Virus record (IMG/VR): IMGVR_UViG_3300045988_052980
Location: 1 to 21,306 of that record
DNA length: 21,306 nucleotides
From: a virus
Direction: 5' to 3' (one strand)
Below are positions 1 through 17,896 of the stretch, piece after piece. Below the pieces are notes generated by a model, which worked only from the letters and a program-made list of their open reading frames with translations, was not told where the DNA came from and did not search any database. The stretch's first letter is position 1. Each line of letters starts with the position of its first letter. The position numbers and the translations under genes were made by a program.

Positions 1-124
1 CTTTTGCAGTAGTTTCATATTGTATATTATTATCAAAAGCATATACATTTACAGGCATAAATAAGCCTAAACATAATACAAACGCAATGACGATTGAATA
101 TCGTCTTTTTTTATTGTTCAACAT
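1..124 (-). CDS. Partial CDS (first 41 codons): secreted or membrane-anchored protein, cargo gene downstream of the repressor
   Basis: Not in the ORF track (cut by the window edge). Minus-strand ATG at 124-122 with an AAGGAA SD 7 nt upstream. Reads MLNNKKRRYSIVIAFVLCLGLFMPVNVYAFDNNIQYETTAK: basic n-region, hydrophobic core, VYA-F cleavage-like site. The start overlaps the repressor stop by 14 nt. Confidence 0.5.
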   Translation of the reverse strand, partial: MLNNKKRRYSIVIAFVLCLGLFMPVNVYAFDNNIQYETTAK

Positions 125-485
125 TGTCTAATTCCTTAATGATTCCATAAATGAAATCTAATAACCTTTCCTTCGTTTCTTCACTTGATTTTAGATAAGC
201 CTTTATAAGTGGCTTTTGGTTTGGATTGATTTGGTATTCTTCTATGAGTTCGTCAATAGTGTTATCCGGTACATCCAAGAACATATCTCCAATTCCTTCA
301 GTAAGCCAAAAATAATCGGCATTAAATGTTCTACAGATGTTTTTAAGAATGTAATCATTCATATTTCTAACGCCACTTTCATAGCTTGCAACAGAATTTC
401 TAGAAACACCAATTCTTGAGCCAAACTCTGTTTGAGTTAAATTTAATGCATTCCTTAACTCTTTTACTCTTTCTCCTGTAGTCAA
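111..485 (-). CDS. XRE/lambda-cI-type HTH repressor (lysogeny maintenance candidate)
   Basis: Track ORF of 124 aa. N-terminal ERVKELRNALNLTQTEFGSRIGVSRNSVASYESGVRN is a classic XRE HTH. Transcribed divergently from the + strand early operon. Confidence 0.8.
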   Translation of the reverse strand: MTTGERVKELRNALNLTQTEFGSRIGVSRNSVASYESGVRNMNDYILKNICRTFNADYFWLTEGIGDMFLDVPDNTIDELIEEYQINPNQKPLIKAYLKSSEETKERLLDFIYGIIKELDNVEQ

Positions 486-525: not shown

Positions 526-569
526 TAAATGTACACAAAAATTACAATTTATGCTTGTAAATGTACACA
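526..569. promoter_or_regulatory. Two direct copies of TAAATGTACACA (526-537 and 558-569), candidate repressor operators
   Basis: Exact 12-bp repeat, 32 bp centre to centre, in the 155-bp divergent intergenic region. Each copy contains the palindrome TGTACA. The second copy lies in the spacer of the candidate rightward promoter. Confidence 0.35.
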
Positions 570-583
570 GTGTGTTGTATACT
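555..583 (+). promoter_or_regulatory. Candidate sigma-A early rightward promoter TTGTAA-17 nt-TATACT
   Basis: -35 TTGTAA at 555-560 and -10 TATACT at 578-583 with a 17-nt spacer. It sits upstream of the first + strand gene. Sequence match only. Confidence 0.35.
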
Positions 584-640
584 ATACACGTAAGTTACAA
601 AACAACACAAAACAACACAAAAAAATGGAGGACACAAGAA

Positions 641-907
641 ATGACAAACGAAGAAATTATCCAAAACACAAAGAAAACATTAGGAATGGGAGAATTTGAA
701 CCATTGCACACTTTCCAAAAATGGAAAGAAATGGGATTCAAAGTTAAGAAAGGTGAGCATGCAGTAACTTGTACAAAGTTATGGAAACCTAAAGCAAATA
801 AATACACAGACACAAACGGAGAAGAAAAAGTTGAAAACAATTTCTTCTTAGCAAAAGCTTACTTATTCAAGTTTAATCAAGTTGAAAGAATAGCTACTAC
901 AAATTAG
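641..907 (+). CDS. First early gene: small protein with a weak ArdC-N/DUF1738-like (ssDNA-binding, antirestriction-type) motif
   Basis: ATG 641 lies 9 nt after GGAGG (627-631), so the track start at 551 was rejected. FQKWKEMGFKVKKGEHAV and FFLAKAYLFKFNQVE resemble the WLTFKQA..GG.VRKGEKG and VFN..Q blocks of ArdC N-domains, from memory. The function is tentative. Confidence 0.45.
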   Translation: MTNEEIIQNTKKTLGMGEFEPLHTFQKWKEMGFKVKKGEHAVTCTKLWKPKANKYTDTNGEEKVENNFFLAKAYLFKFNQVERIATTN

Positions 908-3944: not shown

Positions 3945-4291
3945 GAGAGCAAGAAATGGCAGTGAATGTAGCAAAGCAAATTTATTTTGATGAATTCAAC
4001 TTGTTTTATCAAATTGCAGAAAGAAGCATAGGAGATACAAATTCAAAGGATGTATTTAATGAAGCGTGTACAGTTCATGATATTACAGAGGAATTCATGT
4101 ATAGATTAAATGATTGTAATAGTTACACAAAAGAAGGATTAAACCAAGAAAGAATAATTGCAATCTATAAAGCATTACATAAAATTGACGGATATTTTAG
4201 TGATGAAAGAATCAAATGCTATATAGAATACACCGACAAAATCATTGATGAAATCCTAAAGCAAGTCGCAGTGCTTGGTGGAGGTGATTAG
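3941..4291 (+). CDS. Hypothetical protein
   Basis: ATGA start/stop overlap with rusA. Track ORF. Confidence 0.6.
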   Translation: MREQEMAVNVAKQIYFDEFNLFYQIAERSIGDTNSKDVFNEACTVHDITEEFMYRLNDCNSYTKEGLNQERIIAIYKALHKIDGYFSDERIKCYIEYTDKIIDEILKQVAVLGGGD

Positions 4292-4292
4292 A

Positions 4293-5024
4293 ATAGCAGA
4301 ACTAAAGAAAAGCCTACAAAGTGGGTATACACACGTTAATAATGAGATATTTCACGATAGAGAATTATCCTATAAAGCAAAAGGCTTGTTTTGCCAAATG
4401 TTAAGCCTTCCGGATAATTGGGATTTTAAGGAAAACAGTATTAAAGCACTAGCTACAGATGGAATATCAAGCGTTCGTTCCGGTTTAAAAGAACTAATGA
4501 ATAAAGGATATTTAATTCGTGAACCTATTAGAGAAGGTAATTTAATTGTTGATTGGCAATATACATTAATAGACAGTCCTCGGAATTTAGAAAATCTAAA
4601 AATAGAAAATCTAAAATTAGAAAATCTAAAATTAGAAAATCTAAACCCTATTAAATTAAATAATAATTCAACTAAAAATGAATTAAATAAAAATAATATT
4701 AATGTATGTACGCACAAACACAAATACGGAGAATATCAACACGTTCTATTAACAGATAAAGAACACACACACCTATTAGATTTATATGGAAACTCATTAT
4801 ATGAGCATATAAAGATTTTGGATGAGTACATTGAAACAAGTGGAAAGAAATACAAGAACCATTCACTAGTGATTCAAAAGTGGGTTCATGATGAATGGAT
4901 GAAAAGAAATAAAGATAATCCTATCACACTTGATTCAAAGTTTTATGTACAAGAAAGCAATCAATCGTATGCAGATGTACAGAAAGAAATGGAACGAGTT
5001 AGAAGGGAAATATTAAGAGCATAA
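4293..5024 (+). CDS. Replication initiator / replisome organizer (N-terminal wHTH, DnaD-like C-terminal part)
   Basis: GYTHVNNEIFHDRELSYKAKGLFCQMLSLPDNWDF...LKELMNKGYL is the typical phage replication-protein wHTH. It is followed by an iteron-encoding linker, then YGEYQHVLLTDKEH...KYKNHSLVIQKW. Start is ambiguous: ATA 4293 is 5 nt after GGTGGAGGTGA (4277-4287), whereas TTG 4275, GTG 4278 and GTG 4284 sit inside or before that SD. Confidence 0.7.
   Translation: MAELKKSLQSGYTHVNNEIFHDRELSYKAKGLFCQMLSLPDNWDFKENSIKALATDGISSVRSGLKELMNKGYLIREPIREGNLIVDWQYTLIDSPRNLENLKIENLKLENLKLENLNPIKLNNNSTKNELNKNNINVCTHKHKYGEYQHVLLTDKEHTHLLDLYGNSLYEHIKILDEYIETSGKKYKNHSLVIQKWVHDEWMKRNKDNPITLDSKFYVQESNQSYADVQKEMERVRREILRA
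4587..4646 (+). repeat. Four tandem 15-bp iterons (TTAGAAAATCTAAAA consensus), candidate phage origin
   Basis: Units at 4587-4601, 4602-4616, 4617-4631 and 4632-4646 each differ from the consensus by at most 1 nt. They encode (L/I)ENLK x4 in the linker of the initiator. An almost pure A+T tract follows at 4647-4710. Confidence 0.8.
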
Positions 5025-5038
5025 GAGGGTGTGAATAA

Positions 5039-6010
5039 ATGGAAAAAATACAGATTTTAGAGCTATTTGGAGGTATCGGTTCTCCAAGATGTGCGTTAAG
5101 AAATATTGGAGTTCCCGTTAAAGCTATCGATTATGTAGAAATAGATGAAAAAGCAGTTCGTTCTTATAACGCAATGTTTGAAGATGAATTAGCGTATAAA
5201 ACTCAATCTGTAGTAGGTTGGAATTTAAGACCAGACATTTTGATACATGGAAGTCCATGCCAAGATTTCTCGATTGCAGGGAAACAAAAAGGAGCGGATG
5301 AAGGCTCTGAAACTCGTAGTTCATTGATGTGGGAAACAATTCACATCATTCAACAAATGGGAGTATGGAAGCCTAGATATGTAATTTGGGAAAACGTGAA
5401 AAACGTATTGTCAAAGCACATGATTCATAACTTCAATCGTTATTTGAAAGAAATGGAAAAAATGGGATATACAAATTCGTTTGAAATATTAAATGCAAGA
5501 GAATTTGGATTACCGCAAAACAGAAATAGAGTGTTCACAGTCTCAATTTTAGGAAATGAATATTTTGAATTTGATGATTTAATCAGAACAAAAGAAAAGA
5601 ATATCAACGATTTTTTAGAAAAAACATTTGAAGATAAATACGTAGTTCGACAAAAAAGTATGTTAAAAAAAATTGAATCTAAAGATAGCAGTTTTAAAGT
5701 GAAAGTGATTAAAGATTATTGCGATACGATAACGTGCAAACAAGTACGCAGTCCAAACGCAGGTGTAATTAGATTAGATGATGGAAGATACAGATATTTG
5801 ACGGAACGTGAGTGTTGGAGATTACAAGGATATACAGATGAGGATTTTGACAATGCAGCAAGAGTAAATCCTGGGAAAGAGGGGTGCATGAACAGTGCAT
5901 TGTACAAGCAAGCAGGGAATTCAATTCCTGTACCAATATTTGAAAGTATATTCAGAAAAATAATACTGAATCAAACAGATTCAAGTAACAAGGAAAACAG
6001 ATTGTTTTAA
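5039..6010 (+). CDS. DNA (cytosine-5)-methyltransferase, orphan
   Basis: Motif I ELFGGIGS, motif IV GSPCQDFS, motif VI ENV, motif VIII QNRNRVF, motif X AGNSIPVP. No restriction endonuclease gene is adjacent. Confidence 0.9.
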   Translation: MEKIQILELFGGIGSPRCALRNIGVPVKAIDYVEIDEKAVRSYNAMFEDELAYKTQSVVGWNLRPDILIHGSPCQDFSIAGKQKGADEGSETRSSLMWETIHIIQQMGVWKPRYVIWENVKNVLSKHMIHNFNRYLKEMEKMGYTNSFEILNAREFGLPQNRNRVFTVSILGNEYFEFDDLIRTKEKNINDFLEKTFEDKYVVRQKSMLKKIESKDSSFKVKVIKDYCDTITCKQVRSPNAGVIRLDDGRYRYLTERECWRLQGYTDEDFDNAARVNPGKEGCMNSALYKQAGNSIPVPIFESIFRKIILNQTDSSNKENRLF

Positions 6011-10505: not shown

Positions 10506-10581
10506 AGCAGGATAGAGCAGTAGTAGCTCACTAGTCTTATTAGCTAGAGGTCGAACGGTGCAAATCCTTCTCCTGCAACCA
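10506..10581 (+). tRNA. Atypical tRNA with anticodon UAU and an initiator-like acceptor and D arm, CCA encoded
   Basis: Hand fold: AGCAGGA-TA-GAGC-AGTAGTA-GCTC-A-CTAGT-CTTATTA-GCTAG-AGGTC-GAA(C)GG-TGCAAAT-CCTTC-TCCTGCA-A-CCA. Initiator-like: A1xA72 mismatch, G2:C71, C3:G70, A11:U24, A73. Deviations: U37, no GG in the D loop, G55 and a bulged C in the T stem. Confidence 0.6.
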
Positions 10582-11102: not shown

Positions 11103-11574
11103 ATGGAAATTATTAGATTGAAAATCAATAACATTACACCTTACGAAAAGAATGCAAAGATTCATACTGAAGCACAAATTGAACAAATTAAGAAATCTAT
11201 TCAAGAATTTGGTATGAATGACCCAATCGCAGTATTGGGGGGGGAACAATACCATAGTTGAAGGTCATGGTCGTTTAGAAGCCTTAAAGCAATTAGGCTA
11301 TACAGAAGTTGACTGTATCAGACTAGACCACCTAACAGATGAAGAAAGAAAAGCTTATACACTTGCTCACAACAAAATCAATATGAATACAGGATTCGAC
11401 TATATGTTATTAGATGAAGAATTAGACAGTATCGAAGATATTAATATGGGAGATTTTGGATTTGAAAGTATTGATGAAATTAATATGGATGAATATTTTG
11501 AAGATACCGAGCCAACAAAAAAAGAACCTAAAAAAATTCAGTGTCCACATTGTGGTGAATGGTTTGAACAATGA
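11103..11574 (+). CDS. ParB-like nuclease-domain protein (DpdB-like position), split by a +1 frame change in a G8 tract
   Basis: Frame A (ATG 11103) reads MEIIRLKINNITPYEKNAKIHTEAQIEQIKKSIQEFGMNDPIAVLGG and stops at 11259-11261. Frame B (track ORF 11218..11574) continues NNTIVEGHGRLEALKQLGYTEVDCIRLDHLTDEERKAYTLAHN. Together they form a complete ParB N-domain (DPI.V....IV.GHgRl.A). The junction is GGGGGGGG at 11237-11244. The stop overlaps the dpdA start (ATGA). Confidence 0.7.
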
Positions 11575-12329
11575 GAATGTTTCTAGCAGGAAGTATGGGG
11601 GGATTAACAAAATCGAAGTATAGTCAAGAAGAATTGTTTAAAGGTGCTTATATCTTACAATCGTTCTACTATGTGGACAAGTACGTTGAAAATGTAATAA
11701 TGCCAAACTGTAAAGATTTTATTTTAGATAGTGGGGCATTTACATTTATGCAAAATTCAAAAAAATCTGTAAATTGGGATGAATATGTTGAGAAATACGC
11801 AGAATTTGTAAAGAAACACAAAGTTAAGAAATACTTTGAATTAGATATTGATTCAATAGTTGGGTTAAAAGAAGTAGAACGATTAAGAGCAAAATTGGAA
11901 GCGTTGGTGGGGTGGCAATGTATTCCTGTATGGCACTTATGGAGAGGAATGGACTATTGGCATAAGATGTGCAAAGAATATTCATATGTAGCTATAGGTG
12001 GATTAGCAGATACAGATAAACATTCAAAGAGGATTAAAAAATTACATAATTGTTTCCCTATGTTAATTAATATAGCTCATAAAAATGGAGCAAAAGTTCA
12101 TGGGTTAGGTTACACATCATTAAAAGGAATAAAAAAATATCATTTTGATTCTGTTGATAGCACATCATGGTTAAGTGGAAATAGATTTGGAGCAGTTTAC
12201 AAATTTAATGGTGAAACGATAGTTAAGATAGATAAGCCAAAAAATAAAAGAGTAAAGACAAATATAGCAATGGAAAACAATTTTATGGAATGGAAAAAGT
12301 TCTCTCAATATGTAGAAAGGATGTATTAA
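11571..12329 (+). CDS. dpdA: DpdA-family 7-deazaguanine DNA transglycosylase (TGT-like)
   Basis: ILDSGAFTF corresponds to the TGT DSGGFQ block, and HGLG....HFDSVDSTSW to the second catalytic Asp block. Size (252 aa) and the adjacent queC fit phage DpdA. Confidence 0.8.
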   Translation: MRMFLAGSMGGLTKSKYSQEELFKGAYILQSFYYVDKYVENVIMPNCKDFILDSGAFTFMQNSKKSVNWDEYVEKYAEFVKKHKVKKYFELDIDSIVGLKEVERLRAKLEALVGWQCIPVWHLWRGMDYWHKMCKEYSYVAIGGLADTDKHSKRIKKLHNCFPMLINIAHKNGAKVHGLGYTSLKGIKKYHFDSVDSTSWLSGNRFGAVYKFNGETIVKIDKPKNKRVKTNIAMENNFMEWKKFSQYVERMY

Positions 12330-13162
12330 TGAATAAGGTAGTAAAATTAATATCCGGCGGTATTGATTCAACTATTATGGCTAATATGTACGAAGGATTA
12401 AATGTATATGTAGACTTTGGGCAAAATTATGTAAAAGAAGAATTGCAAGCTTTAAAAGAGTTAGGAATTAAATATGATTTAGTAAAGGTAAATAGCGTAT
12501 TTAAAGAAGATGATATATACATTAATGATAGAAACCTAGTATTAGCAAGTTTAGTTGCAATGATATATAATCCGGACATCATTATGATGGCAGGTACAAA
12601 GGATGACAATTGTGTAGATAAGACTAAAGAAGCATTTGAAAACATTAGCGATACTATTAGTCGATATTCAAATAAGGAAATAAAAGTTATATCACCTTTT
12701 TGGGATAAGACTAAAAGTGAAATTGTTGAACAATATGCAGATAAGGAAGAATTAAAAAAGACATTTTCATGCTATAACCCAATTAATGGGAAACCATGTA
12801 TGGATTGCCCTGCGTGTTTAAGAAAAACTATTGCACTAGTAACAAATGGAGTAGAAGTAAAAGAAAAGCTATCAAAAAGCATTTTAAAAAAATATCTTAA
12901 AAAGATACATACATATGATAAAGACAGAATTAGTAGATTCTTTTTCTACCTACAACAATATGAACAAATTAATGCAATTGATATTGACGGAGTATTATGT
13001 ATCTCAGAAGGACACGATTTTGAGAATAGTATTCCAATTTACGAGAATATAGAAAAAGTAAATAAATACGATGGAATTAATGTACTCTATACGTCAAGGT
13101 TAGAATCGGATAGAGAAGTGACTGAAAAATGGTTACAAAAGCACAACGTCAAATATGCTTAA
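12329..13162 (+). CDS. queC: QueC-like 7-cyano-7-deazaguanine (preQ0) synthase fused to a C-terminal HAD-phosphatase-like domain (HAD tail frame-disrupted)
   Basis: PP-loop SGGIDST, DFGQNY, NDRNLVLA, SPFWDKTKSEIV and Zn cluster SCYNPINGKPCMDCPACLRK are QueC-like. From about 12970: AIDIDGVL (HAD motif I) and NVLYTSR (motif II). Motifs III/IV (NKLPYTSLVDDRA) are encoded in the -1 frame at 13159-13221. The ATG at 12329 overlaps the dpdA stop. Confidence 0.75.
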   Translation: MNKVVKLISGGIDSTIMANMYEGLNVYVDFGQNYVKEELQALKELGIKYDLVKVNSVFKEDDIYINDRNLVLASLVAMIYNPDIIMMAGTKDDNCVDKTKEAFENISDTISRYSNKEIKVISPFWDKTKSEIVEQYADKEELKKTFSCYNPINGKPCMDCPACLRKTIALVTNGVEVKEKLSKSILKKYLKKIHTYDKDRISRFFFYLQQYEQINAIDIDGVLCISEGHDFENSIPIYENIEKVNKYDGINVLYTSRLESDREVTEKWLQKHNVKYA

Positions 13163-13231
13163 TAACAAATAAATTACCATATACAAGTTTAGTTGATGAC
13201 AGAGCAAAATTAACATTATAAAGGAGTAAAT

Positions 13232-13534
13232 ATGATTGAAAACAAAGAAAAAGTAAAATATATCGAAATGTATCCAAAGGCAAGATGTTTCTGCCCTATT
13301 GGTAAAGCATGGTACACCAATAAATTTAGAGTATCAGTATTTCCTAGAGATTGTTATTTCGACTATCTAGATGTAGAGAAATTTATTAAAGAAGAAATTG
13401 AAGGAAAAAGCTTAACAATTGAAGGAGCTTGCAAGAAACTATATAACTATTTGAAAAAAGATGTTGAAGATATTCAAGTAGAATCACACGTAAATGACGC
13501 AACGCATTTTCCTGTAAAGGTATTAATTGATTAA
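13232..13534 (+). CDS. Short QueF-like T-fold protein (nitrile reductase or QueF-L-type amidinotransferase)
   Basis: ARCFCPIGKAWYTNKFRVSVFPRDCYFDYLDVEKFI...TIEGACKKLYNYL aligns by eye with B. subtilis QueF [34 protein letters not shown]...FHEDCMNIIMNDL, with the Cys-Pro conserved. It is only 100 aa and lacks the N-terminal extension. Confidence 0.45.
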   Translation: MIENKEKVKYIEMYPKARCFCPIGKAWYTNKFRVSVFPRDCYFDYLDVEKFIKEEIEGKSLTIEGACKKLYNYLKKDVEDIQVESHVNDATHFPVKVLID

Positions 13535-13547
13535 GGAGGAAGTACTA

Positions 13548-14006
13548 ATAAAAAATCAAACAATTAAGACAATTTCAATGAATGCAATCGTATGTGCAAT
13601 GTATGTTGCATTATGTGTAGCATTAAATCCAATTAGCTTTGGAGCATTACAATTTAGAGTAGCAACTCTATTGTTACCGTTAGGGTTTCAAGATAAGAGA
13701 TTTGCAAATGGACTTATTTTAGGAGTAATCTTAGCAAACCTAACAAGTTCACTAGGATTAATTGATGTATTAGTTGGATTTACAATTCAATTTACAATGT
13801 ATTATTTATTCCCATATTATATTAAGAATAAATGGATTCATGGAATTGCTTATGCAGTATTAAGTGGAACATTAGTAGCATTAGAATTATTATCAGTATT
13901 ACACATTCCATTCTTATATTCATTTGTAACGGTTGGATTAAGCGGATTGATTTTATACGAAGTAGGAAATGTATTGTGTACAAGATTATTGAAATACATT
14001 GATTAA
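13548..14006 (+). CDS. queT: QueT-family membrane transporter (queuosine-precursor salvage), apparent ATA start
   Basis: NAIVCAMYVALCVALNPISFGALQFRVATLLLPL and ILANLTSSLGLIDVLVG match the QueT pattern, with about 5 TM segments. AAGGAGG (13533-13539) is followed after 8 nt by in-frame ATA 13548. The track TTG 13527 lies upstream of that SD. Confidence 0.7.
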   Translation: MKNQTIKTISMNAIVCAMYVALCVALNPISFGALQFRVATLLLPLGFQDKRFANGLILGVILANLTSSLGLIDVLVGFTIQFTMYYLFPYYIKNKWIHGIAYAVLSGTLVALELLSVLHIPFLYSFVTVGLSGLILYEVGNVLCTRLLKYID

Positions 14007-14021
14007 AGGAGTGATAGACAC

Positions 14022-14390
14022 ATGGCAAGCAAAAAGTTTATTAATCAAAAGCAATTTGAACAACTATGCCAAATTCAATGTACAAAAGAAGAAATCTGCT
14101 CTGTGTTAGATGTATCAGAAAAAACATTGAATAATTGGTGTAAAGATACATACGGAGAAACTTTCTCCCTAGTTTTCGGTAAAAAAAGACAAGGAGGGTG
14201 CGCAAGTCTTAGAGCAAAGCAGTGGAAACTAGCTTCTAAAAGCCCTGCTATGGCTATTTTCTTAGGTAAACAATTCTTAGGTCAAACGGATAAGGTAGAA
14301 ACACATTTTGACGCTTCAGAAGTAAATGCAATTAATAAAGCTATGATTACAGATGTAGCAAAAGAAAGAAGAATTGAAGACTTTGAATAA
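14022..14390 (+). CDS. terS: Terminase small subunit
   Basis: HTH-like TKEEICSVLDVSEKTLNNWCK and the AMAIFLGKQFLGQTD block typical of this TerS family. It lies directly upstream of TerL. Confidence 0.7.
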   Translation: MASKKFINQKQFEQLCQIQCTKEEICSVLDVSEKTLNNWCKDTYGETFSLVFGKKRQGGCASLRAKQWKLASKSPAMAIFLGKQFLGQTDKVETHFDASEVNAINKAMITDVAKERRIEDFE

Positions 14391-14408
14391 AAGAAAGGTG
14401 GTGGTTTG

Positions 14409-15739
14409 ATGAATAAGCCTGCACCTTTTAATCAAAAGCAGTTGGCTTACCTCAAGAAAACATTTGATTGTTGGTTGAATGTACTTGAGGGAGGTTAGGC
14501 AAGCGTGGAGGAAAGAACGTACTGAACACGTACGCATTCTGCGTTGCATTAGAAACACATCCGGATAAATTCCATTTGATAGCAGGAACGGATACATCAT
14601 CAGCACGTGTAAATATTGGAGATTGTAATGGATATGGTTTGCAGAACTATTTTGCTAATAGATTCAAAGTAGGAAAGTATGAAGGTAAAGACTGCTACTA
14701 CATCAACACAAAGGTTGGTGAAAAGGTTGTATTCTTTGCCGGTGGTGCTAAAAAAGGCTCAGAGAATGCGATACATGGTTATTCTTATGGAATGGCATAT
14801 GTAACAGAAGCAAACCTTTGTTGCATTGAGTTTCTACAAGAAGTGATGGATAGAACAATAGCTTCAAGCAATCGAAAGATATTTCATGATTTAAACCCCA
14901 AAGGAAAGAATCATTGGTATTATACTGATTTCTTGAAATATCATGAGGAGCAACAGAATAAAGATTCTACATATGGTTACAACTATGGGCATACCACCTT
15001 AGTTGATAATTATTCATTAAGTGATGAGCAGATAAGAACGGTCTTAAAATCATACGATAAGAATAGCGTTTATTACAAAAGAGATATAAAAGGACAAAGG
15101 GAAGAAGCCGAAGGACTTGTGTTCCCTTATTTTGCTAATGACTGCAAACCTTACCTATTTAAATATCAGAGTCTAAAAGAAAAGATGAAAGAACAAGGAA
15201 AAAGGTTCAGTCATTTAATCATAGGTGTTGACTTTGGAGACAATGGGTCAAAGTATTCATGGCATTTAACAGGGTTTACAAATGATTGGGATTATATGTG
15301 GGCACTTGATGAAGGAGACATGGCAAAATCTAATTCCATAGACGCAACAAAGTTCTGCAAAGCGTTTGTAAGGTTCTATAAGCGTTGTATTGAATGTTAC
15401 GGATATGTGGAATGGATATTTCCGGACAGTGCTTCTAATACATTAATTAACACGCTTAGAGCTTATTTCTACGCCGAAGGGCTAGACGGAAGTATAATTG
15501 CACCGGTCAAGAAGAATGAGCTAACCGACCGTCCCATAACGGTTGATAGCTTACTTGTTACAGGAAGATTGAAGATAGAAGAACATTGTAAGAACTTAAT
15601 AAACGCATTGAGCGAATTGGTATGGGATAAAAAAAAAGACATTCCAAAAGATGAGAACGTAAACAATATCAATGACGATTGGGATTCGTTCTGCTATACA
15701 TTTATAACCCATAGTGGATATATAGATTTAAGGAGGTAA
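14409..15739 (+). CDS. terL: Terminase large subunit, frame-disrupted at the Walker A region
   Basis: ATG 14409 (AAGGTGG SD) gives MNKPAPFNQKQLAYLKKTFDCWLNVLEGG, then TAG at 14496-14498. The rest (..GKRGGKNVLNTYAF...FHLIAGTD...VVFFAGGA...NPKGKNHWYY...IIGVDFGDNGS) is in another frame, open from 14489; the track ORF starts only at TTG 14576. Confidence 0.8.
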
Positions 15740-15742
15740 GAA

Positions 15743-17146
15743 ATAGAAACATCTAACACACGTAGACCGTGGTTTCAAAACTACCTTAACGAAAGAGGGT
15801 ATTTTGTAGATACAAACGCAATTGAAATCATTGAATTGTGTAACAAGTGGTATACGAATACAGAAACAGAATTTCATACGGCATACACATTAAATAACGA
15901 GGAATACACGCTAGACAAAACAGACTTTGCAAAGCGCTTGTGTGAGGATGACGCAAACCTAATTGAAATCTTAGATATAAACGCAACAGAGGACAGTGTT
16001 ACAAATGATATTATTTCAGACATTCTAACAAAGAACAGGTTTGATGTAATGTATAGGAAACAAGTTGAGCAAATGTCTGCAAACGGAACAGTAGGAGCTT
16101 ATGTAACTGTATCGAATGCCGAAATTTATGAAGATGGTTCATTTAGTGGAGGAGAAATCAGAATCAACTATTGTGATTCAATGAATATCCTCCCATTAAC
16201 TGTTATCAATGATGAAATTGTGGAAGTTGCTTTCGTTGGGGTAAATTACGAAAAACTAAAAAAAGTATATGTAATGGTCATGTTCTTAAAAGGACAAGAC
16301 GAAAGATATATTGCAGAAACACATTACTTTAAAGATACAGGCGAAGAAATAAAAGACCGTGCTCAGATTGTTCAATTAGATGTTGTAAAGCCGTTTGCAA
16401 TTATGAGAAACGCAAAGGTAAACAACTTACAAATGCAAGGTTACGGCTTGCCAAAAATTTGGAGCGCAATTGCTCCACTGAAAACAATTGATTTAACAAT
16501 GACAATGTGGAATCGTGATTTGTTGAAATCCGATAAAATCGTTCTTGTGAATGAAGCATTAATGCAGAAAGACGAGAATGGAAAGATTAAGATGAATCCA
16601 CAAATGAAAAAGATATTTGTTCAGTTAGGTAGAGATAAGCTTCCGGAAGAAAAAGCTTTATGGCAAGAATATAATCCAACAGTAAGAACGGCAGAAGTTG
16701 TTCAATCACTAGAAACTGCGTTAAGTATCTTATCTATGATGTTTGGATTTGGTACAAAGAAATATACGTTTGAAAGTGGAAGAATCGTAACGGCTACAGA
16801 ATATATCGGTGAGAATCAAGACGCAATGAAGGAAGTAAATTCACAACGTAAAGAATCTACTGCATATATTCAAGATATTATTCAAGCGATAGCGTACTTC
16901 TACGAATTAACACAAGGAAGAAAGCTTAATATCAATTCATTAGACATTGCAATTGATTATGACGATACGTATATCGAGGATAAGCAAAGCACGGCACAAG
17001 CGTTAAGGAATGACGCACTAACATTTGATATTCCAAGATTGAAAATCATGTACTTTATGAAGCAATACGGCTTTACTGAAGAAGAAGCTACTGAATTATT
17101 AAATGAAGAAATTCAAGATGATGGAGAGGAGGATGAAGAAGAATAG
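15743..17146 (+). CDS. Portal protein (SPP1 gp6-like), apparent ATA start
   Basis: About 467 aa directly after terL, with an acidic tail DDGEEDEEE. The frame opens at 15740. AGGAGG (15731-15736) is followed after 6 nt by ATA 15743. The first canonical start is TTG 15836, which has no SD. Confidence 0.75.
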   Translation: METSNTRRPWFQNYLNERGYFVDTNAIEIIELCNKWYTNTETEFHTAYTLNNEEYTLDKTDFAKRLCEDDANLIEILDINATEDSVTNDIISDILTKNRFDVMYRKQVEQMSANGTVGAYVTVSNAEIYEDGSFSGGEIRINYCDSMNILPLTVINDEIVEVAFVGVNYEKLKKVYVMVMFLKGQDERYIAETHYFKDTGEEIKDRAQIVQLDVVKPFAIMRNAKVNNLQMQGYGLPKIWSAIAPLKTIDLTMTMWNRDLLKSDKIVLVNEALMQKDENGKIKMNPQMKKIFVQLGRDKLPEEKALWQEYNPTVRTAEVVQSLETALSILSMMFGFGTKKYTFESGRIVTATEYIGENQDAMKEVNSQRKESTAYIQDIIQAIAYFYELTQGRKLNINSLDIAIDYDDTYIEDKQSTAQALRNDALTFDIPRLKIMYFMKQYGFTEEEATELLNEEIQDDGEEDEEE

Positions 17147-17778
17147 CAACTACATATTTTCCATTCGTCTCAAGAAATGGCGATAGATTAGTGTTATATG
17201 ACGCTTTCAGAAGATTATTCTCAAGCTATTTCACAAATGGTGTGTTCATAGACGATTCTAGTTCAGACCATTTAAGAGTTGAGAAAGCTCAAGGCTTAAC
17301 ATTAACAATTAAAGCAGGACGAGCAAATATTAATGGAGCGTTCTATTGGCAGAAAGATGACGAAACCATAACATTAGAAAAGAATAGCGCTACTAAAAAC
17401 TACAATATTATTCTTAGGTTAAATGATAATGACACATATAGAAACATTACCTTAGTAGCAAGTGATATTAACAGTGGAATTACAAGAAGTGATTCTATTT
17501 ACGATTTGGTATTAGCTACAGTTACGGTAACAGGTAATTCAAATGAAGTTAAAGGTTCAGATATTACAGATACAAGATTAGATTCAACACGTTGTGGAGC
17601 AGTTACAAGCGCAATTAAAAGCGTACAATCGTTGGATTTATTTACCCAAGTTACTGAGTTATTCAAAGAAATTAAGGCTCAGAATGAATCTGAAATGAAC
17701 GCAAATAGAACAGAGTTCAATGATTGGTTTGAAACTGTAAAAGATACGTTAGACGCAAATACGGCAGGGAAACATTGA
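17143..17778 (+). CDS. Fibre/baseplate-type structural protein (YFPF..GDR family), apparent ATA start, C-terminus frame-disrupted
   Basis: (M)ATTYFPFVSRNGDRLVLYDAFRRLFSSYFTNGVF...LTLTIKAGRANINGAFY matches the widespread Firmicute prophage structural family that begins M..YFPFdS..GDR.Y. The frame opens at 17137, and its only start-like codon is ATA 17143, overlapping the portal stop as ATAG. The track GTG 17191 would remove the conserved N-terminus. Confidence 0.6.
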   Translation: MATTYFPFVSRNGDRLVLYDAFRRLFSSYFTNGVFIDDSSSDHLRVEKAQGLTLTIKAGRANINGAFYWQKDDETITLEKNSATKNYNIILRLNDNDTYRNITLVASDINSGITRSDSIYDLVLATVTVTGNSNEVKGSDITDTRLDSTRCGAVTSAIKSVQSLDLFTQVTELFKEIKAQNESEMNANRTEFNDWFETVKDTLDANTAGKH

Positions 17779-17782
17779 AAAG

Positions 17783-17896
17783 ATGATTATGGAGAACCAT
17801 TTCACTACGATTCTATTAACAGGAAATGGAGAACTAGTAGATGAAAATGGTCATGAGATTTTAGCGGATTGGAAATATAAAGTCAAGGAGGAATAG
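17783..17896 (+). CDS. 37-codon ORF, probably the displaced C-terminus of the preceding gene
   Basis: MIMENHFTTILLTGNGELVDENGHEILADWKYKVKEE. This frame is open from 17753 and reads ..AGNIEKMIMEN.. if joined at GGGAAA (17767-17772). Confidence 0.3.
   Translation: MIMENHFTTILLTGNGELVDENGHEILADWKYKVKEE

What the first reader, a model, noticed from the sequence alone, without database searches (positions are those of the whole stretch)
11103..14006. Compact 7-deazaguanine DNA-modification module that looks salvage-based: ParB-like + DpdA + QueC-HAD + short QueF-like + QueT
Five consecutive, translationally coupled genes sit between the late-region leader and terS: a ParB-like gene, dpdA (TGT-like DSGAFT and FDSVDS blocks), a queC-like gene (SGGIDST PP-loop, Cys4 cluster), a 100-aa QueF-like T-fold gene and a QueT-type membrane transporter.

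Established knowledge:
- DpdA-family enzymes exchange guanine in DNA for preQ0.
- QueC makes preQ0 from 7-carboxy-7-deazaguanine.
- QueF reduces preQ0 to preQ1.
- QueT is the predicted S-component for queuosine-precursor uptake.
- In the bacterial dpd system, DpdA needs the ParB-like ATPase DpdB.

Unusual points:
- No FolE, QueD or QueE is present in this window, so the pathway would start from host-made or imported intermediates.
- A virus-encoded precursor transporter implies the phage rewires host uptake to feed its own DNA modification.
- The ParB-like gene overlaps dpdA (ATGA) in the DpdB position but is much shorter than DpdB.
- The module lies immediately upstream of the packaging genes.

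I cannot tell from the sequence which base is finally installed (dPreQ0, dPreQ1 or an amidino derivative).
Basis: partly seen in the sequence, partly recalled or inferred. Interest (0 to 1): 0.7.

Follow-up and report, generated by a model that had tools for sequence, protein, structure and literature searches.

The report
Import-fed phage 7-deazaguanine DNA-modification cassette
A gut prophage-like element carries a compact gene set for replacing guanine in its DNA with a 7-deazaguanine base made from host-made or imported precursors, including an unannotated small enzyme family that most resembles archaeal archaeosine synthase; this copy is a partly decayed recombinant.

Summary
Window 11103-14006 encodes, in order:
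- a ParB-like protein;
- a phage-type DpdA;
- a QueC-like protein with a HAD-like tail;
- a 100-aa T-fold protein;
- a QueT transporter.

terS and terL follow directly.

No FolE, QueD or QueE was found in the window ORFs that were scanned. None is on record for the rest of the 30.2-kb public scaffold that contains the window.

- **Damaged copy.** ParB is frameshifted in a G8 run, QueC-HAD has a 4-nt deletion, and terL has a 5-nt insertion.
- **The 100-aa protein is not QueF.** It lacks the NADPH motif. It belongs to an unannotated family of about 194 clusters. Its best structural match is archaeal QueF-L (TM 0.85), with the catalytic Cys and the Glu conserved.
- **Conserved cassette.** Twenty-five diverged viral loci carry ParB, DpdA, usually QueC, the T-fold gene and a YhhQ-type transporter. 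QueT fills the transporter slot here.
- **Chimera.** The nearest relative has queD-queE-folE where this window has the T-fold gene.

Phage-encoded transporters are already known (Dp-1 QueT, CAjan YhhQ).

Verdict: a new variant of a known kind, of moderate interest. The base finally installed is unresolved; dG+ or dADG is the best guess.

The parts
11103..11261 (+). ParB-like gene, N-terminal fragment. It ends prematurely after a +1 frameshift in the G8 run at 11237-11244.
   Evidence: PHROG 620 E=2e-14. Intact 165-aa orthologues exist in L004, L006 and L007. The frameshift was located by DNA alignment.
11218..11574 (+). ParB-like gene, C-terminal fragment. It carries the EGHGRLEA (GxxRxxA-type) motif, an acidic linker and a C-terminal CPHC. 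Its stop overlaps the dpdA start (ATGA).
   Evidence: PHROG 620 E=4e-30. The intact orthologue hits the PADLOC MTase_II N-domain at 6.6e-28 and Pfam ParB_N at 2e-4, below the Pfam cut-off. A GHGR-type motif was found in 22 of 34 distinct homologues and a C-terminal CxxC in 32 of 34.
11571..12329 (+). dpdA: phage-type DNA guanine transglycosylase, 252 aa.
   Evidence: PHROG 887 E=7e-56. tblastn reaches 9g and Iggy DpdA at E=3e-8. PADLOC and NCBIfam DpdA give weak matches, residues 137-202 to model positions about 200-262. D53 (DSGAF) and D196 (FDSVDS) are invariant in a 28-sequence alignment.
12329..13162 (+). queC-like gene with a C-terminal HAD-like domain. The likely start is the ATG at 12329 (TAATG junction). 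The 3' end is truncated by a 4-nt deletion.
   Evidence: Pfam QueC E=2.6e-15. PADLOC QueC E=4.6e-19 on the intact L046 orthologue. PP-loop SGGIDS and a Cys4 cluster are present. HAD motif IDIDGV is present, with weak HMM hits TIGR01689 at 0.0024 and phrog_1238 at 4.7e-6. P0154 is the intact form, 311 aa and 98% identical.
13156..13221 (+). Out-of-frame remnant of the HAD-like C-terminus (LITNKLPYTSLVDDRAKLTL*).
   Evidence: tblastn of L011 and L046 QueC-HAD splits across two frames here. A 4-nt gap (TGAT) is seen against L046.
13232..13534 (+). 100-aa T-fold gene of an unannotated QueF-L-like family. Conserved residues are C21, G24, D44, Y45, E64 and H92.
   Evidence: About 194 representative clusters. 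Alignment A5. AF2 model at pLDDT 97.2. The top 13 Foldseek PDB hits are all QueF-L 5jyx/5k0p, TM 0.79-0.85. hmmsearch E=6.4e-4 and hhalign probability 92% to QueF-L, with Cys and Glu aligned.
13527..14006 (+). queT: ECF-type S-component for queuosine precursors. Possible starts are the TTG at 13527 or the ATG at 13578.
   Evidence: Pfam PF06177 E=3.9e-26, above the gathering score. 37% identical to Dp-1 gp6 QueT. Several hydrophobic segments.
14022..14390 (+). terS. Context: the cassette sits directly upstream of the packaging genes.
   Evidence: PHROG 309/606 terminase small subunit. The same order is seen in all relatives.
14409..15739 (+). terL. Context: disrupted by a 5-nt insertion at about 14493-14497 in the Walker A region.
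   Evidence: Intact 441-aa orthologues exist in L001, L003 and L004. Confirmed by DNA alignment and split tblastn.

Best explanation
This is a late-expressed phage cassette that modifies the phage's own DNA with a 7-deazaguanine after replication and before packaging.

**Proposed mechanism**
1. DpdA excises guanine at target sites and inserts preQ0. D53 would act as general acid/base and D196 as nucleophile.
2. The small ParB-like protein, which carries a GxxRxxA-type nucleotide-binding motif, probably assists DpdA. It would act in trans, much as ParB-type domains are fused to phage DNA methyltransferases and as DpdB serves bacterial DpdA.
3. The element has no FolE, QueD or QueE. The deazapurine must therefore come from the host's queuosine pathway or from outside.
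4. QueT plugs into the host ECF energising module and imports preQ0 or preQ1.
5. QueC can convert host-made or imported CDG or ADG to preQ0.
6. The 100-aa T-fold protein attacks the nitrile of preQ0 with Cys21 to form a thioimide, as QueF and QueF-L do. It has no NADPH motif, so it most likely resolves the thioimide with ammonia (giving dG+, archaeosine) or with water (giving dADG). By analogy with QueF-L this probably happens on preQ0 already in DNA.

**Status of this copy**
It is a recombinant. A dpdA/queC-HAD segment from a de novo cassette (ParB-DpdA-QueC-HAD-QueD-QueE-FolE-QueT) is joined, exactly at the start codon, to the T-fold/queT/terS/terL segment of a salvage cassette. It also carries frame-disrupting mutations in ParB, QueC-HAD and terL, so it probably belongs to a defective prophage.

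**Shown:** gene identities, fold, conserved residues, cassette conservation, mosaic origin, and absence of FolE/QueD/QueE from the scanned ORFs.
**Inferred:** substrates, order of reactions, the final base, the role of ParB, and expression timing.
For: **Component identities**
-.

**No de novo genes**
- Window ORFs scanned.
- Rest of the 30.2-kb scaffold, from precomputed Pfam.
- That scaffold is identical to the window over their shared region, apart from 20 nt.

**Cassette conservation**
- All 25 diverged IMG/VR loci with a T-fold homologue have it adjacent to a Vut_1/YhhQ transporter.
- DpdA lies upstream in 23 of 25; the other two are cut by contig ends.
- ParB lies upstream of DpdA in 20 of those 23.
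- Canonical QueC is present in 17. In L020 Pfam QueC gives 5e-56.
- None has QueD, QueE or FolE within about 6 kb.
- QueT in the window's lineage and Vut_1 in the others occupy the same slot. This is non-orthologous displacement.

**T-fold protein**
-.
- QueF-L chemistry: a Cys21 thioimide that ammonia turns over only on preQ0-tRNA (PMC5485725).

**Mosaic origin**
- L046 is 95.4% identical to window 11371-13235. Relatives of type A are about 90% identical from 13232 onward. The sequences diverge right after the shared RBS and ATG.

**Precedents**
- DpdB is a ParB-fold ATPase required by bacterial DpdA (PMC10164549).
- Phage DpdAs insert preQ0 or preQ1 after replication (PMC6884629, PMC10516641).
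Against: - No biochemical data exist for any member of this cassette.
- The QueF-L general acid Asp28 aligns with a Tyr (the WYT motif), and the His before the anchoring Glu is absent. The chemistry may therefore differ from QueF-L.
- Four related cassettes carry a class-I SAM methyltransferase in the QueC slot. That would fit an amine or amidine product that I cannot specify.
- QueT and QrtT proteins tested so far carry preQ1, q or Q (PMC11130926). If preQ1 is what enters, a nitrile-acting enzyme has no obvious substrate in the cassettes that lack QueC.
- In CAjan the phage transporter was dispensable (PMC7544227).
- The ParB-like gene matches no DpdB model. Characterised phage DpdAs such as Iggy and Dp-1 have no ParB neighbour.
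- In this copy ParB, the HAD tail and terL are broken, so the module may not work at all here.
- The host is unknown; both genome scans found nothing.
Confidence: 0.6

Rival explanations
1. The cassette installs dPreQ0 or dPreQ1, and the T-fold protein is not an amidinotransferase or hydratase acting on DNA. It could be a divergent nitrile reductase that binds a reductant differently, giving preQ1 as in phage Dp-1. Or it could be a non-catalytic binder or chaperone for the imported deazapurine.
For: - Dp-1, which has QueT and DpdA, carries dPreQ1 (PMC6884629).
- Proteins once predicted to be phage 'QueF-L' turned out to be QueF (PMC6884629, PMC10516641).
- QueT and QrtT transport preQ1 (PMC11130926).
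- Methyltransferase-containing cassette variants would suit an amine product.
- Asp28 and the His of QueF and QueF-L are not conserved.
Against: - The NADPH motif is absent from all 104 family members.
- The protein is 100 aa with a single T-fold module. Its best sequence and structure matches are to QueF-L, not QueF.
- A nearly invariant Cys at the thioimide position, an invariant Glu and an invariant His argue for catalysis.
- The gene usually follows QueC, the preQ0-forming step.
Confidence: 0.25
2. In this element the module is an inactive relic. The element is a defective prophage in which ParB, the HAD tail of QueC and terL are pseudogenes, and the orphan QueC is left over from a recombination that removed queD-queE-folE.
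For: - Frame disruptions are documented.
- They are also present in the public assemblies of the same sequence.
- They include a 4-nt deletion and a 5-nt insertion, which are not typical sequencing errors.
- Chimeric origin.
Against: - DpdA, the QueC domain, the T-fold gene and QueT are intact.
- A QueC-only design without QueD/E/FolE is common in related cassettes (17 canonical QueC plus the QueC-HAD loci L011 and L047-49), so orphan QueC is not in itself a sign of decay.
- The public contig has low coverage (2.3x k-mer), and the assemblies may all derive from one sample.
- The poly-G shift could be reversible.
Confidence: 0.35
3. The precursor comes mainly from the host's own de novo queuosine pathway (CDG or preQ0). 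The transporter is an auxiliary gene of minor importance, so the module depends on the host rather than on uptake.
For: - CAjan delta-yhhQ kept full modification (PMC7544227).
- L046 combines QueT with a full de novo set.
- Frequent QueC without QueD/E implies a CDG supply, most simply from the host.
Against: - A transporter gene is retained in every one of more than 35 cassettes, and two unrelated families fill the same slot. This indicates selection for uptake.
- Cassettes with no QueC at all (type A, L021, L024) need a ready-made base.
Confidence: 0.3
4. The TGT-like enzyme modifies tRNA, of the host or the phage, rather than DNA.
For: - Database names say 'queuine tRNA-ribosyltransferase'.
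- A tRNA gene lies 0.5 kb upstream.
Against: - The family groups with experimentally validated DNA-modifying DpdAs, 9g and Iggy.
- The neighbouring tRNA has anticodon UAU, not a GUN Q-target.
- The partner is a ParB-type domain of the kind found fused to phage DNA methyltransferases, and the cassette sits beside the packaging genes.
Confidence: 0.04

Closest known systems
Streptococcus phage Dp-1 queuosine-like cluster (gp1 QueF, QueC, QueD, QueE, FolE, gp6 QueT, gp7 DpdA); its DNA carries dPreQ1
   Same: - A Firmicute phage with a QueT gene directly beside DpdA.
- A QueC and a T-fold QueF-family gene lie in the same cluster (PMC6884629).
   Different: - Dp-1 has the complete de novo pathway and a true QueF with the [8 protein letters not shown] NADPH motif.
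- It has no ParB-like gene.
- Its cluster sits at the genome start, not beside terS.
- The window lacks FolE, QueD and QueE, and its T-fold protein is QueF-L-like.
Seuratvirus and Nonagvirus clusters (CAjan with dPreQ0; 9g with dG+ made by Gat-QueC)
   Same: - The DpdA is homologous (E=3e-8 to 9g).
- CAjan encodes a precursor transporter, YhhQ, inside its cluster (PMC7544227).
- 9g shows that dG+ is a natural phage DNA base.
   Different: - These phages are lytic and encode FolE, QueD, QueE and QueC.
- dG+ is made by Gat-QueC in 9g, or by ArcS in nt-1, not by a QueF-L-type protein.
- No ParB partner has been reported for them.
Bacterial Dpd modification module (DpdA, DpdB, DpdC)
   Same: - A TGT-family DNA transglycosylase is paired with a ParB-fold protein that carries a nucleotide-binding (D/E)GxxR-type motif.
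- A separate enzyme then converts DNA-bound preQ0, to dADG in the case of DpdC (PMC10164549).
   Different: - The ParB-like protein here is 165 aa. It lacks the SspE-like C-domain and hits no DpdB model.
- DpdA scores far below the bacterial DpdA cut-off, 20 bits against 200.
- The downstream enzyme is a T-fold protein, not DpdC.
- There is no restriction component.
Archaeal QueF-L (archaeosine synthase, PDB 5jyx/5k0p)
   Same: - About 100-110 aa with a single T-fold module; TM 0.85 and rmsd 1.9 A.
- The thioimide Cys and the substrate-anchoring Glu align.
- There is no NADPH motif.
   Different: - Only 17% identity.
- Asp28 and His62 of QueF-L are not conserved.
- The family has its own signature: N4, PDY, and H92 in DAxHxPV.
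- The context is phage DNA modification, not tRNA.
Fusobacterium phage phiFN37 (OR492271)
   Same: An isolated phage with ParB-like, DpdA, a hypothetical gene and a Vut_1 'queuosine precursor transporter' in a row, and no annotated de novo genes within 5 kb on either side.
   Different: - The gene between DpdA and the transporter is unrelated to the T-fold family.
- The transporter is YhhQ-type.
- The cassette is not beside the terminase genes.

Membership tests
Phage DpdA (DNA guanine transglycosylase, TGT superfamily) | Sequence homology to experimentally characterised phage DpdAs | tested here: met
   PHROG 887 E=7e-56. tblastn E=3e-8 to 9g and Iggy DpdA; 173 phage records in all.
Phage DpdA (DNA guanine transglycosylase, TGT superfamily) | Conserved catalytic aspartates: a general acid/base in a DSG motif and a nucleophile in an FDxxD/S motif | tested here: met
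   D53 (LDSGAF) and D196 (FDSVDS) are invariant in 28 sequences. The weak DpdA HMM alignment, window 137-202 to model positions about 200-262, places D196 near the Asp256 position of S. Montevideo DpdA (PMC10164549).
Phage DpdA (DNA guanine transglycosylase, TGT superfamily) | Guanine/7-deazaguanine exchange in DNA | not testable with these tools
   Needs an in vivo or in vitro assay.
Bacterial DpdA (NCBIfam NF041059 equivalog) | Score above the curated cut-off | tested here: not met
   20.3 bits against a cut-off of 200. No match to PDB TGT or DpdA sequences by phmmer or by profile.
QueC (7-cyano-7-deazaguanine synthase) | PP-loop SGGxDS and the C-terminal Zn-binding Cys cluster | tested here: met
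   LISGGIDST and C-x9-C-x2-C-x2-C are visible in the translation.
QueC (7-cyano-7-deazaguanine synthase) | Profile match above curated thresholds | tested here: inconclusive
   Pfam QueC scores 56.9 bits, above the gathering score of 22, but covers residues 76-184 only. NCBIfam TIGR00364 scores 42 bits against a cut-off of 150. This is a divergent QueC-HAD subfamily with 43 homologues, all carrying PF06508.
QueF (NADPH-dependent preQ0 reductase) | NADPH-binding motif E(S/L)K(S/A)hK(L/Y)(Y/F/W) | tested here: not met
   Found in 0 of 104 family members and 0 of 35 locus homologues. Present in Dp-1 QueF as ESKSLKLY.
QueF (NADPH-dependent preQ0 reductase) | Pfam PF14489 match | tested here: not met
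   No hit for the window protein. Only 6 of 104 relatives give weak hits, best 0.0024.
QueF-L (archaeosine synthase) | Unimodular T-fold of about 100-110 aa, superimposable on 5jyx/5k0p | tested here: met
   AF2 model at pLDDT 97.2. The top 13 Foldseek hits are all QueF-L, TM 0.79-0.85 by both normalisations, rmsd 1.7-2.0 A.
QueF-L (archaeosine synthase) | Catalytic Cys (Cys21) that forms the thioimide, and a Glu that anchors the base | tested here: met
   C21 is conserved in at least 90% of members and E64 is invariant. Both align with QueF-L Cys21 and Glu63.
QueF-L (archaeosine synthase) | Conserved Asp acting as general acid/base, 7 residues after the Cys (Asp28 by my count from the alignment) | tested here: not met
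   The aligned column is the Tyr of the WYT motif. The Asp two residues earlier is variable, and is Ala in the window protein.
QueF-L (archaeosine synthase) | Ammonia-dependent conversion of polymer-bound preQ0 to G+ | not testable with these tools
   Needs biochemistry.
QueT (ECF S-component for Q precursors) | Pfam PF06177 above the gathering score; a small multi-pass membrane protein | tested here: met
   92.5 bits against 33.7. Several hydrophobic 19-mers. 37% identical to Dp-1 QueT.
QueT (ECF S-component for Q precursors) | Works with a host EcfAA'T module; substrate is preQ0, preQ1 or q | not testable with these tools
   The host is unknown.
DpdB (ParB-fold ATPase partner of DpdA) | ParB/Srx-type N-domain with a nucleotide-binding (D/E)GxxR or GxxRxxA motif | tested here: met
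   EGHGRLEA is present. PHROG 620 E=4e-30. ParB_N E=2e-4 on the intact orthologue, below the Pfam gathering score.
DpdB (ParB-fold ATPase partner of DpdA) | DpdB-specific sequence and an SspE-like C-terminal helical domain (DpdB is a homodimer of 80-95 kDa) | tested here: not met
   The intact form is 165 aa with an acidic linker and a CxxC. There is no PADLOC DpdB hit. The best hit is the ParB-type N-domain of MTase_II at 6.6e-28.

The most novel reading that the evidence does not exclude
The roughly 100-aa T-fold family would be a phage-borne, DNA-acting counterpart of archaeal QueF-L. With a ParB-assisted DpdA and an imported or host-made nitrile base, it would form a minimal four-gene system (ParB, DpdA, T-fold, transporter). 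That system would install archaeosine (dG+), or a related amidine or amide, in phage DNA without any de novo deazapurine synthesis. This would be a third, independent route to dG+, after Gat-QueC and ArcS. It would also be the first phage DpdA clade that needs a ParB-type partner.
Probability: 0.3. Interest if true: 0.72.

Novelty: new variant of a known kind. Interest (0 to 1): 0.55.

Why it matters
7-Deazaguanine DNA modifications protect phage DNA from restriction enzymes and Cas9. The pathways described so far come mostly from lytic phages that encode the whole preQ0 pathway.

This cassette, seen in more than 35 loci from viral and gut metagenome collections, shows a cheaper design. The phage keeps only the transglycosylase, a ParB-type helper, a nitrile-modifying T-fold enzyme and a precursor transporter, and takes the base from the host or the environment.

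If the T-fold family acts as proposed:
- It adds a new enzyme family to DNA hypermodification.
- It links phage DNA protection to the availability of queuosine precursors in the gut.
- It gives a testable case of modular swapping: de novo genes against a T-fold gene, and QueT against YhhQ, at fixed gene junctions.

For this particular copy the significance is lower, because the element looks partly inactivated.

Tried and rejected
- **Megablast of the module against 50,697 phage records:** no match.
- **tblastn of the 100-aa protein against phages:** no match.
- **ARAGORN:** no tRNA. Rfam later found one.
- **First AF2 run with 5 sequences:** pLDDT 48, unusable. It was replaced by a run with 104 sequences.
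- **Genome-contig scans with DpdA and with terL to find a host:** none confirmed. The host remains unknown.
- **phmmer and a 28-sequence DpdA profile against PDB sequences:** no TGT or DpdA hit.
- **The search for related loci with the 104-sequence alignment:** It was repeated with 13 sequences.
- **phiFN37 hypothetical protein between DpdA and the transporter:** not a T-fold family member.
- **Weak Pfam DUF3109 (DpdM family) hit on window ORF 4275-5024:** rejected. E=0.005, below the cut-off, with no CxxxCxxCC motif; it looks like an HTH replication protein.
- **preQ1 riboswitch or any other Rfam family near the module:** none at E<=1.
- **Promoter-like sites:** no more than in shuffled sequence. 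Four terminator-like sites were found against 1.2 expected, none further interpreted.
- **MMBR 2024 review (PMC10966956):** not held.

Full report
**1. What is in the window**

The window is AT-rich (about 31% GC) and almost all genes are on the + strand. The layout is that of a temperate siphophage:
- a divergent repressor (111-485, minus strand);
- a Sak annealing protein, NinB and RusA;
- a C5-cytosine methyltransferase;
- dUTPase and SSB;
- a small protein with a weak sigma-70 region-4 match.

An intergenic region holding a tRNA follows. Then come DUF6275, the five genes of the finding, terS, terL, portal and head genes.

The window is essentially a public human-gut metagenome contig:
- It matches ENA ERZ1304817 NODE_1094, which is 21,326 bp at k-mer coverage 2.3.
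- It is also the first 21.3 kb of a 30,244-bp scaffold, ERZ28620863 scaffold_770.
- The only difference over the shared region examined is a 20-nt deletion at 17769/17770.

**2. Checking the five genes**

- **DpdA (11571-12329).** It scores E=7e-56 against PHROG 887. tblastn finds 173 phage records, including the characterised DpdAs of 9g and Iggy at E=3e-8. In an alignment of 28 homologues, D53 (DSGAF) and D196 (FDSVDS) are invariant. These match the acid/base and nucleophile roles described for bacterial DpdA (PMC10164549). The protein is far below the bacterial DpdA equivalog cut-off, and neither phmmer nor a profile reached PDB TGT or DpdA sequences.
- **QueT (13527-14006).** It is a clear PF06177 member, hydrophobic throughout, and 37% identical to Dp-1 gp6 QueT.
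- **QueC-like gene.** It has the PP-loop and the Cys4 cluster, and Pfam QueC above threshold on its C-terminal half. It belongs to a divergent QueC-HAD subfamily of 43 homologues. The HAD-like tail is supported by the DxDG motif and by weak HMM hits only.
- **ParB-like gene.** It is real (PHROG 620) but is split by a +1 frameshift in a G8 run.
- **100-aa ORF.** It hits nothing in Pfam, PHROGs, NCBIfam or PADLOC.

**3. The 100-aa protein**

A word-indexed search found only 4 relatives. An exhaustive profile search found 194 representative clusters of about 100-110 aa.

The family alignment shows:
- E64 and H92 invariant;
- N4, C21, G24, D44, Y45 and V95 conserved in at least 90% of members;
- recurring motifs CxCP(L/I)G..WYT, PDY, GKxLIIE and DAxHxPV.

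With this alignment AlphaFold gave a pLDDT 97.2 model with beta-beta-alpha-alpha-beta-beta T-fold topology.

Comparison with known proteins:
- The top 13 Foldseek PDB hits are all chains of archaeal QueF-L (5jyx/5k0p), with TM 0.79-0.85 by both normalisations. GTP cyclohydrolase I T-fold domains come next.
- The family profile hits QueF-L by sequence at E=6.4e-4.
- hhalign gives 92% probability to QueF-L, with the thioimide Cys and the anchoring Glu in register. It gives 15% to the genuine QueF of phage Dp-1.
- The QueF NADPH motif is absent from all 104 members, while Dp-1 QueF has ESKSLKLY.

The QueF-L general-acid Asp and the His that precedes the Glu are not conserved. I therefore describe the protein as QueF-L-like, not as a QueF-L orthologue.

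This bears on the literature. Hutinet et al. 2023 report that no phage QueF sequence aligned with QueF-L (PMC10516641). Earlier phage 'QueF-L' predictions proved to be QueF (PMC6884629).

**4. Comparative context**

Relatives of the same phage lineage share terS, terL and QueT at about 90% nucleotide identity. They carry ParB, DpdA', the T-fold gene and QueT, with no QueC (L001-L008).

Twenty-five more distant IMG/VR loci were found with the T-fold protein as query. Searches show one conserved cassette:
- one or two ParB-like genes;
- DpdA;
- a variable slot;
- the T-fold gene;
- a Vut_1/YhhQ transporter (PF02592, E between 1e-36 and 1e-51);
- in the loci read that far, an ORF of terL size, and a terL match in four of them.

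The variable slot holds canonical QueC in 17 loci, a SAM methyltransferase in 4, a dCMP deaminase in 1, and nothing in 2. In the last locus (L036) it holds two ORFs I did not characterise, with the transporter upstream of the T-fold gene.

None of these loci has QueD, QueE or FolE within about 6 kb, as judged by small HMMs I built.

The window's lineage has QueT exactly where the others have YhhQ. Two unrelated Q-precursor transporter families occupy one slot, which is good evidence that uptake is the selected function.

The isolated Fusobacterium phage phiFN37 has ParB, DpdA, a hypothetical gene and Vut_1. Its middle gene is unrelated to the T-fold family.

**5. The window's cassette is a chimera**

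The closest relative of the window's QueC-HAD is P0154, 98% identical and intact at 311 aa. It lies on contig L046 with this order: ParB, DpdA, QueC-HAD, QueD, QueE, FolE, QueT.

The identities divide the window cleanly:
- L046 is 95.4% identical to window 11371-13235, and 91.6% identical over QueT.
- The type-A relatives are about 90% identical to window 13232-17883. Over dpdA they are only about 73% identical.
- The window and L046 share the intergenic RBS and the ATG, and diverge immediately afterwards.

So in this element queD-queE-folE has been replaced by the T-fold gene at a gene boundary. Equivalently, dpdA and queC-HAD were imported into a type-A cassette.

This weakens the inference from QueT alone, because QueT also accompanies a full de novo pathway in L046 and in Dp-1. 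It does not weaken the observation that this element lacks the de novo genes. The remaining 9 kb of the 30.2-kb scaffold encodes only head, tail and holin functions.

**6. State of this copy**

Compared with intact relatives, the window has four frame disruptions:
- G8 in ParB, where G7 would be in frame;
- a 4-nt deletion in QueC-HAD;
- a 5-nt insertion in the terL Walker A region;
- a 20-nt deletion in a head gene.

The first three are also present in the public assemblies. Those assemblies may all derive from one low-coverage sample.

Two of these changes are multi-nucleotide indels, which are not typical sequencing errors. The element is therefore probably a decaying prophage.

DpdA, the QueC domain, the T-fold gene and QueT remain intact.

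**7. Mechanism**

The best-supported reading has four parts.

- **Base exchange.** DpdA exchanges guanine in phage DNA for preQ0. Phage DpdAs have been shown to insert preQ0, and some preQ1 (PMC6884629, PMC10516641).
- **The helper.** The ParB-like protein carries GHGRxxA and a C-terminal CxxC. Its nearest sequence match is the ParB-type N-domain of phage DNA methyltransferase fusions. It lies immediately beside DpdA in every locus whose DpdA is at least 39% identical to the window's and whose flank is present. It probably loads or activates DpdA on DNA, as DpdB does for bacterial DpdA (PMC10164549), although it is not a DpdB homologue by sequence.
- **Precursor supply.** This comes from the host pathway, from uptake, or both. 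QueT is an ECF S-component and needs the host's energising module (Rodionov et al. 2009, as cited in PMC5699537). QueC can convert CDG or ADG to preQ0.
- **The T-fold enzyme.** It most likely forms a Cys21 thioimide with the nitrile. Having no NADPH site, it would resolve the thioimide with ammonia (dG+) or water (dADG). QueF-L turns over only polymer-bound preQ0 (PMC5485725), so action on DNA is the more likely mode.

All four parts are inferences. The final base cannot be read from sequence.

**8. Comparison with what is known, and novelty**

Already known:
- DpdA;
- QueC;
- phage-encoded YhhQ and QueT;
- the idea that phages encoding only DpdA depend on the host or on uptake (PMC5699537, PMC6884629, PMC7544227).

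Not described in the literature I could search:
- the QueF-L-like T-fold family and its strict linkage to DpdA and a transporter;
- the constant ParB-like partner in this DpdA clade, which Iggy and Dp-1 lack;
- the modular swaps at fixed junctions.

I rate the finding a new variant of a known kind. Interest is moderate. It is lowered for this copy by its pseudogenised state, and raised by the breadth and regularity of the cassette family.

Noticed in passing
window 11237-11244; L001 about 8725; L008 about 5495: The ParB-like gene has a poly-G tract whose length breaks the frame in every sequence that has the tract. It is G8 in the window (+1) and G7 in L001 and L008 (-1). L004, L006 and L007 have an interrupted tract (GGGGTAAAAAC or GGGGAGAAAAA) and are in frame. 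This could be slipped-strand phase variation of the DpdA helper, or repeated inactivation.
   Followed up: partly
window about 14493-14497: terL carries a 5-nt insertion (GAGGGAGG-TTAGG-CAAGCG) inside the Walker A region (LEGGKRGGKN in relatives). The gene is split into a 29-codon piece and a piece with no start codon before the P-loop. The public contigs L050, L051 and L053 have the same insertion.
   Followed up: yes
window 17769/17770: The window lacks 20 nt that are present in the otherwise identical public contigs (NODE_1094 and scaffold_770). The deletion breaks the 241-aa head-protein gene. It is the only difference from those records over the shared region examined.
   Followed up: yes
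window 10506-10578 (+): Rfam calls a tRNA gene (48.8 bits, gathering score 29). It has anticodon UAU, an A1-A72 mismatch and an encoded CCA. ARAGORN did not report it. It lies in the intergenic region between the gene with the weak sigma-70 region-4 match and DUF6275.
   Followed up: partly
window 5039-6010 (+) and 551-907 (+): The same element also encodes a C5-cytosine DNA methyltransferase (Pfam 4e-55) and a protein with a weak match to the N-domain of the anti-restriction factor ArdC. It therefore carries, or carried, more than one anti-restriction function.
   Followed up: no
L001 9122-9290; L004 5972-6105: The 5' end of dpdA' in type-A relatives contains two or three tandem copies of a unit encoding MKAYLAESGGL, each beginning with ATG. 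The true start and the copy number vary between contigs.
   Followed up: no
L023 1963-2778; L026 4478-5332; L040 and L041 5181-5999; L018 4321-4827: In some cassettes the slot between DpdA and the T-fold gene holds something other than QueC. Four loci have a class-I SAM methyltransferase (Pfam Methyltransf_23/11), which is not the DUF3109 DpdM family. L018 has a dCMP/cytidine deaminase. This hints at further derivatives of the base.
   Followed up: partly
L028 4945-5253 and 5941-6306; L034 4467-4814 and 5517-5831; L035 and L039 upstream of DpdA: Some cassettes carry two paralogous T-fold genes flanking QueC. Others carry two tandem ParB-like genes.
   Followed up: no
proteins P0087 (5558 aa) and P0123 (397 aa): Two database proteins contain four separate matches to the T-fold family profile. 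They could be tandem-domain proteins or mis-called ORFs, for example from recoded stop codons.
   Followed up: no
window 13163-13231 and L046 1856-1895: The intergenic spacer with RBS (AAAGGAGTAAAT) and the start codon are identical upstream of two unrelated genes, the T-fold gene here and queD in L046. The recombination junction falls exactly at the ATG.
   Followed up: yes
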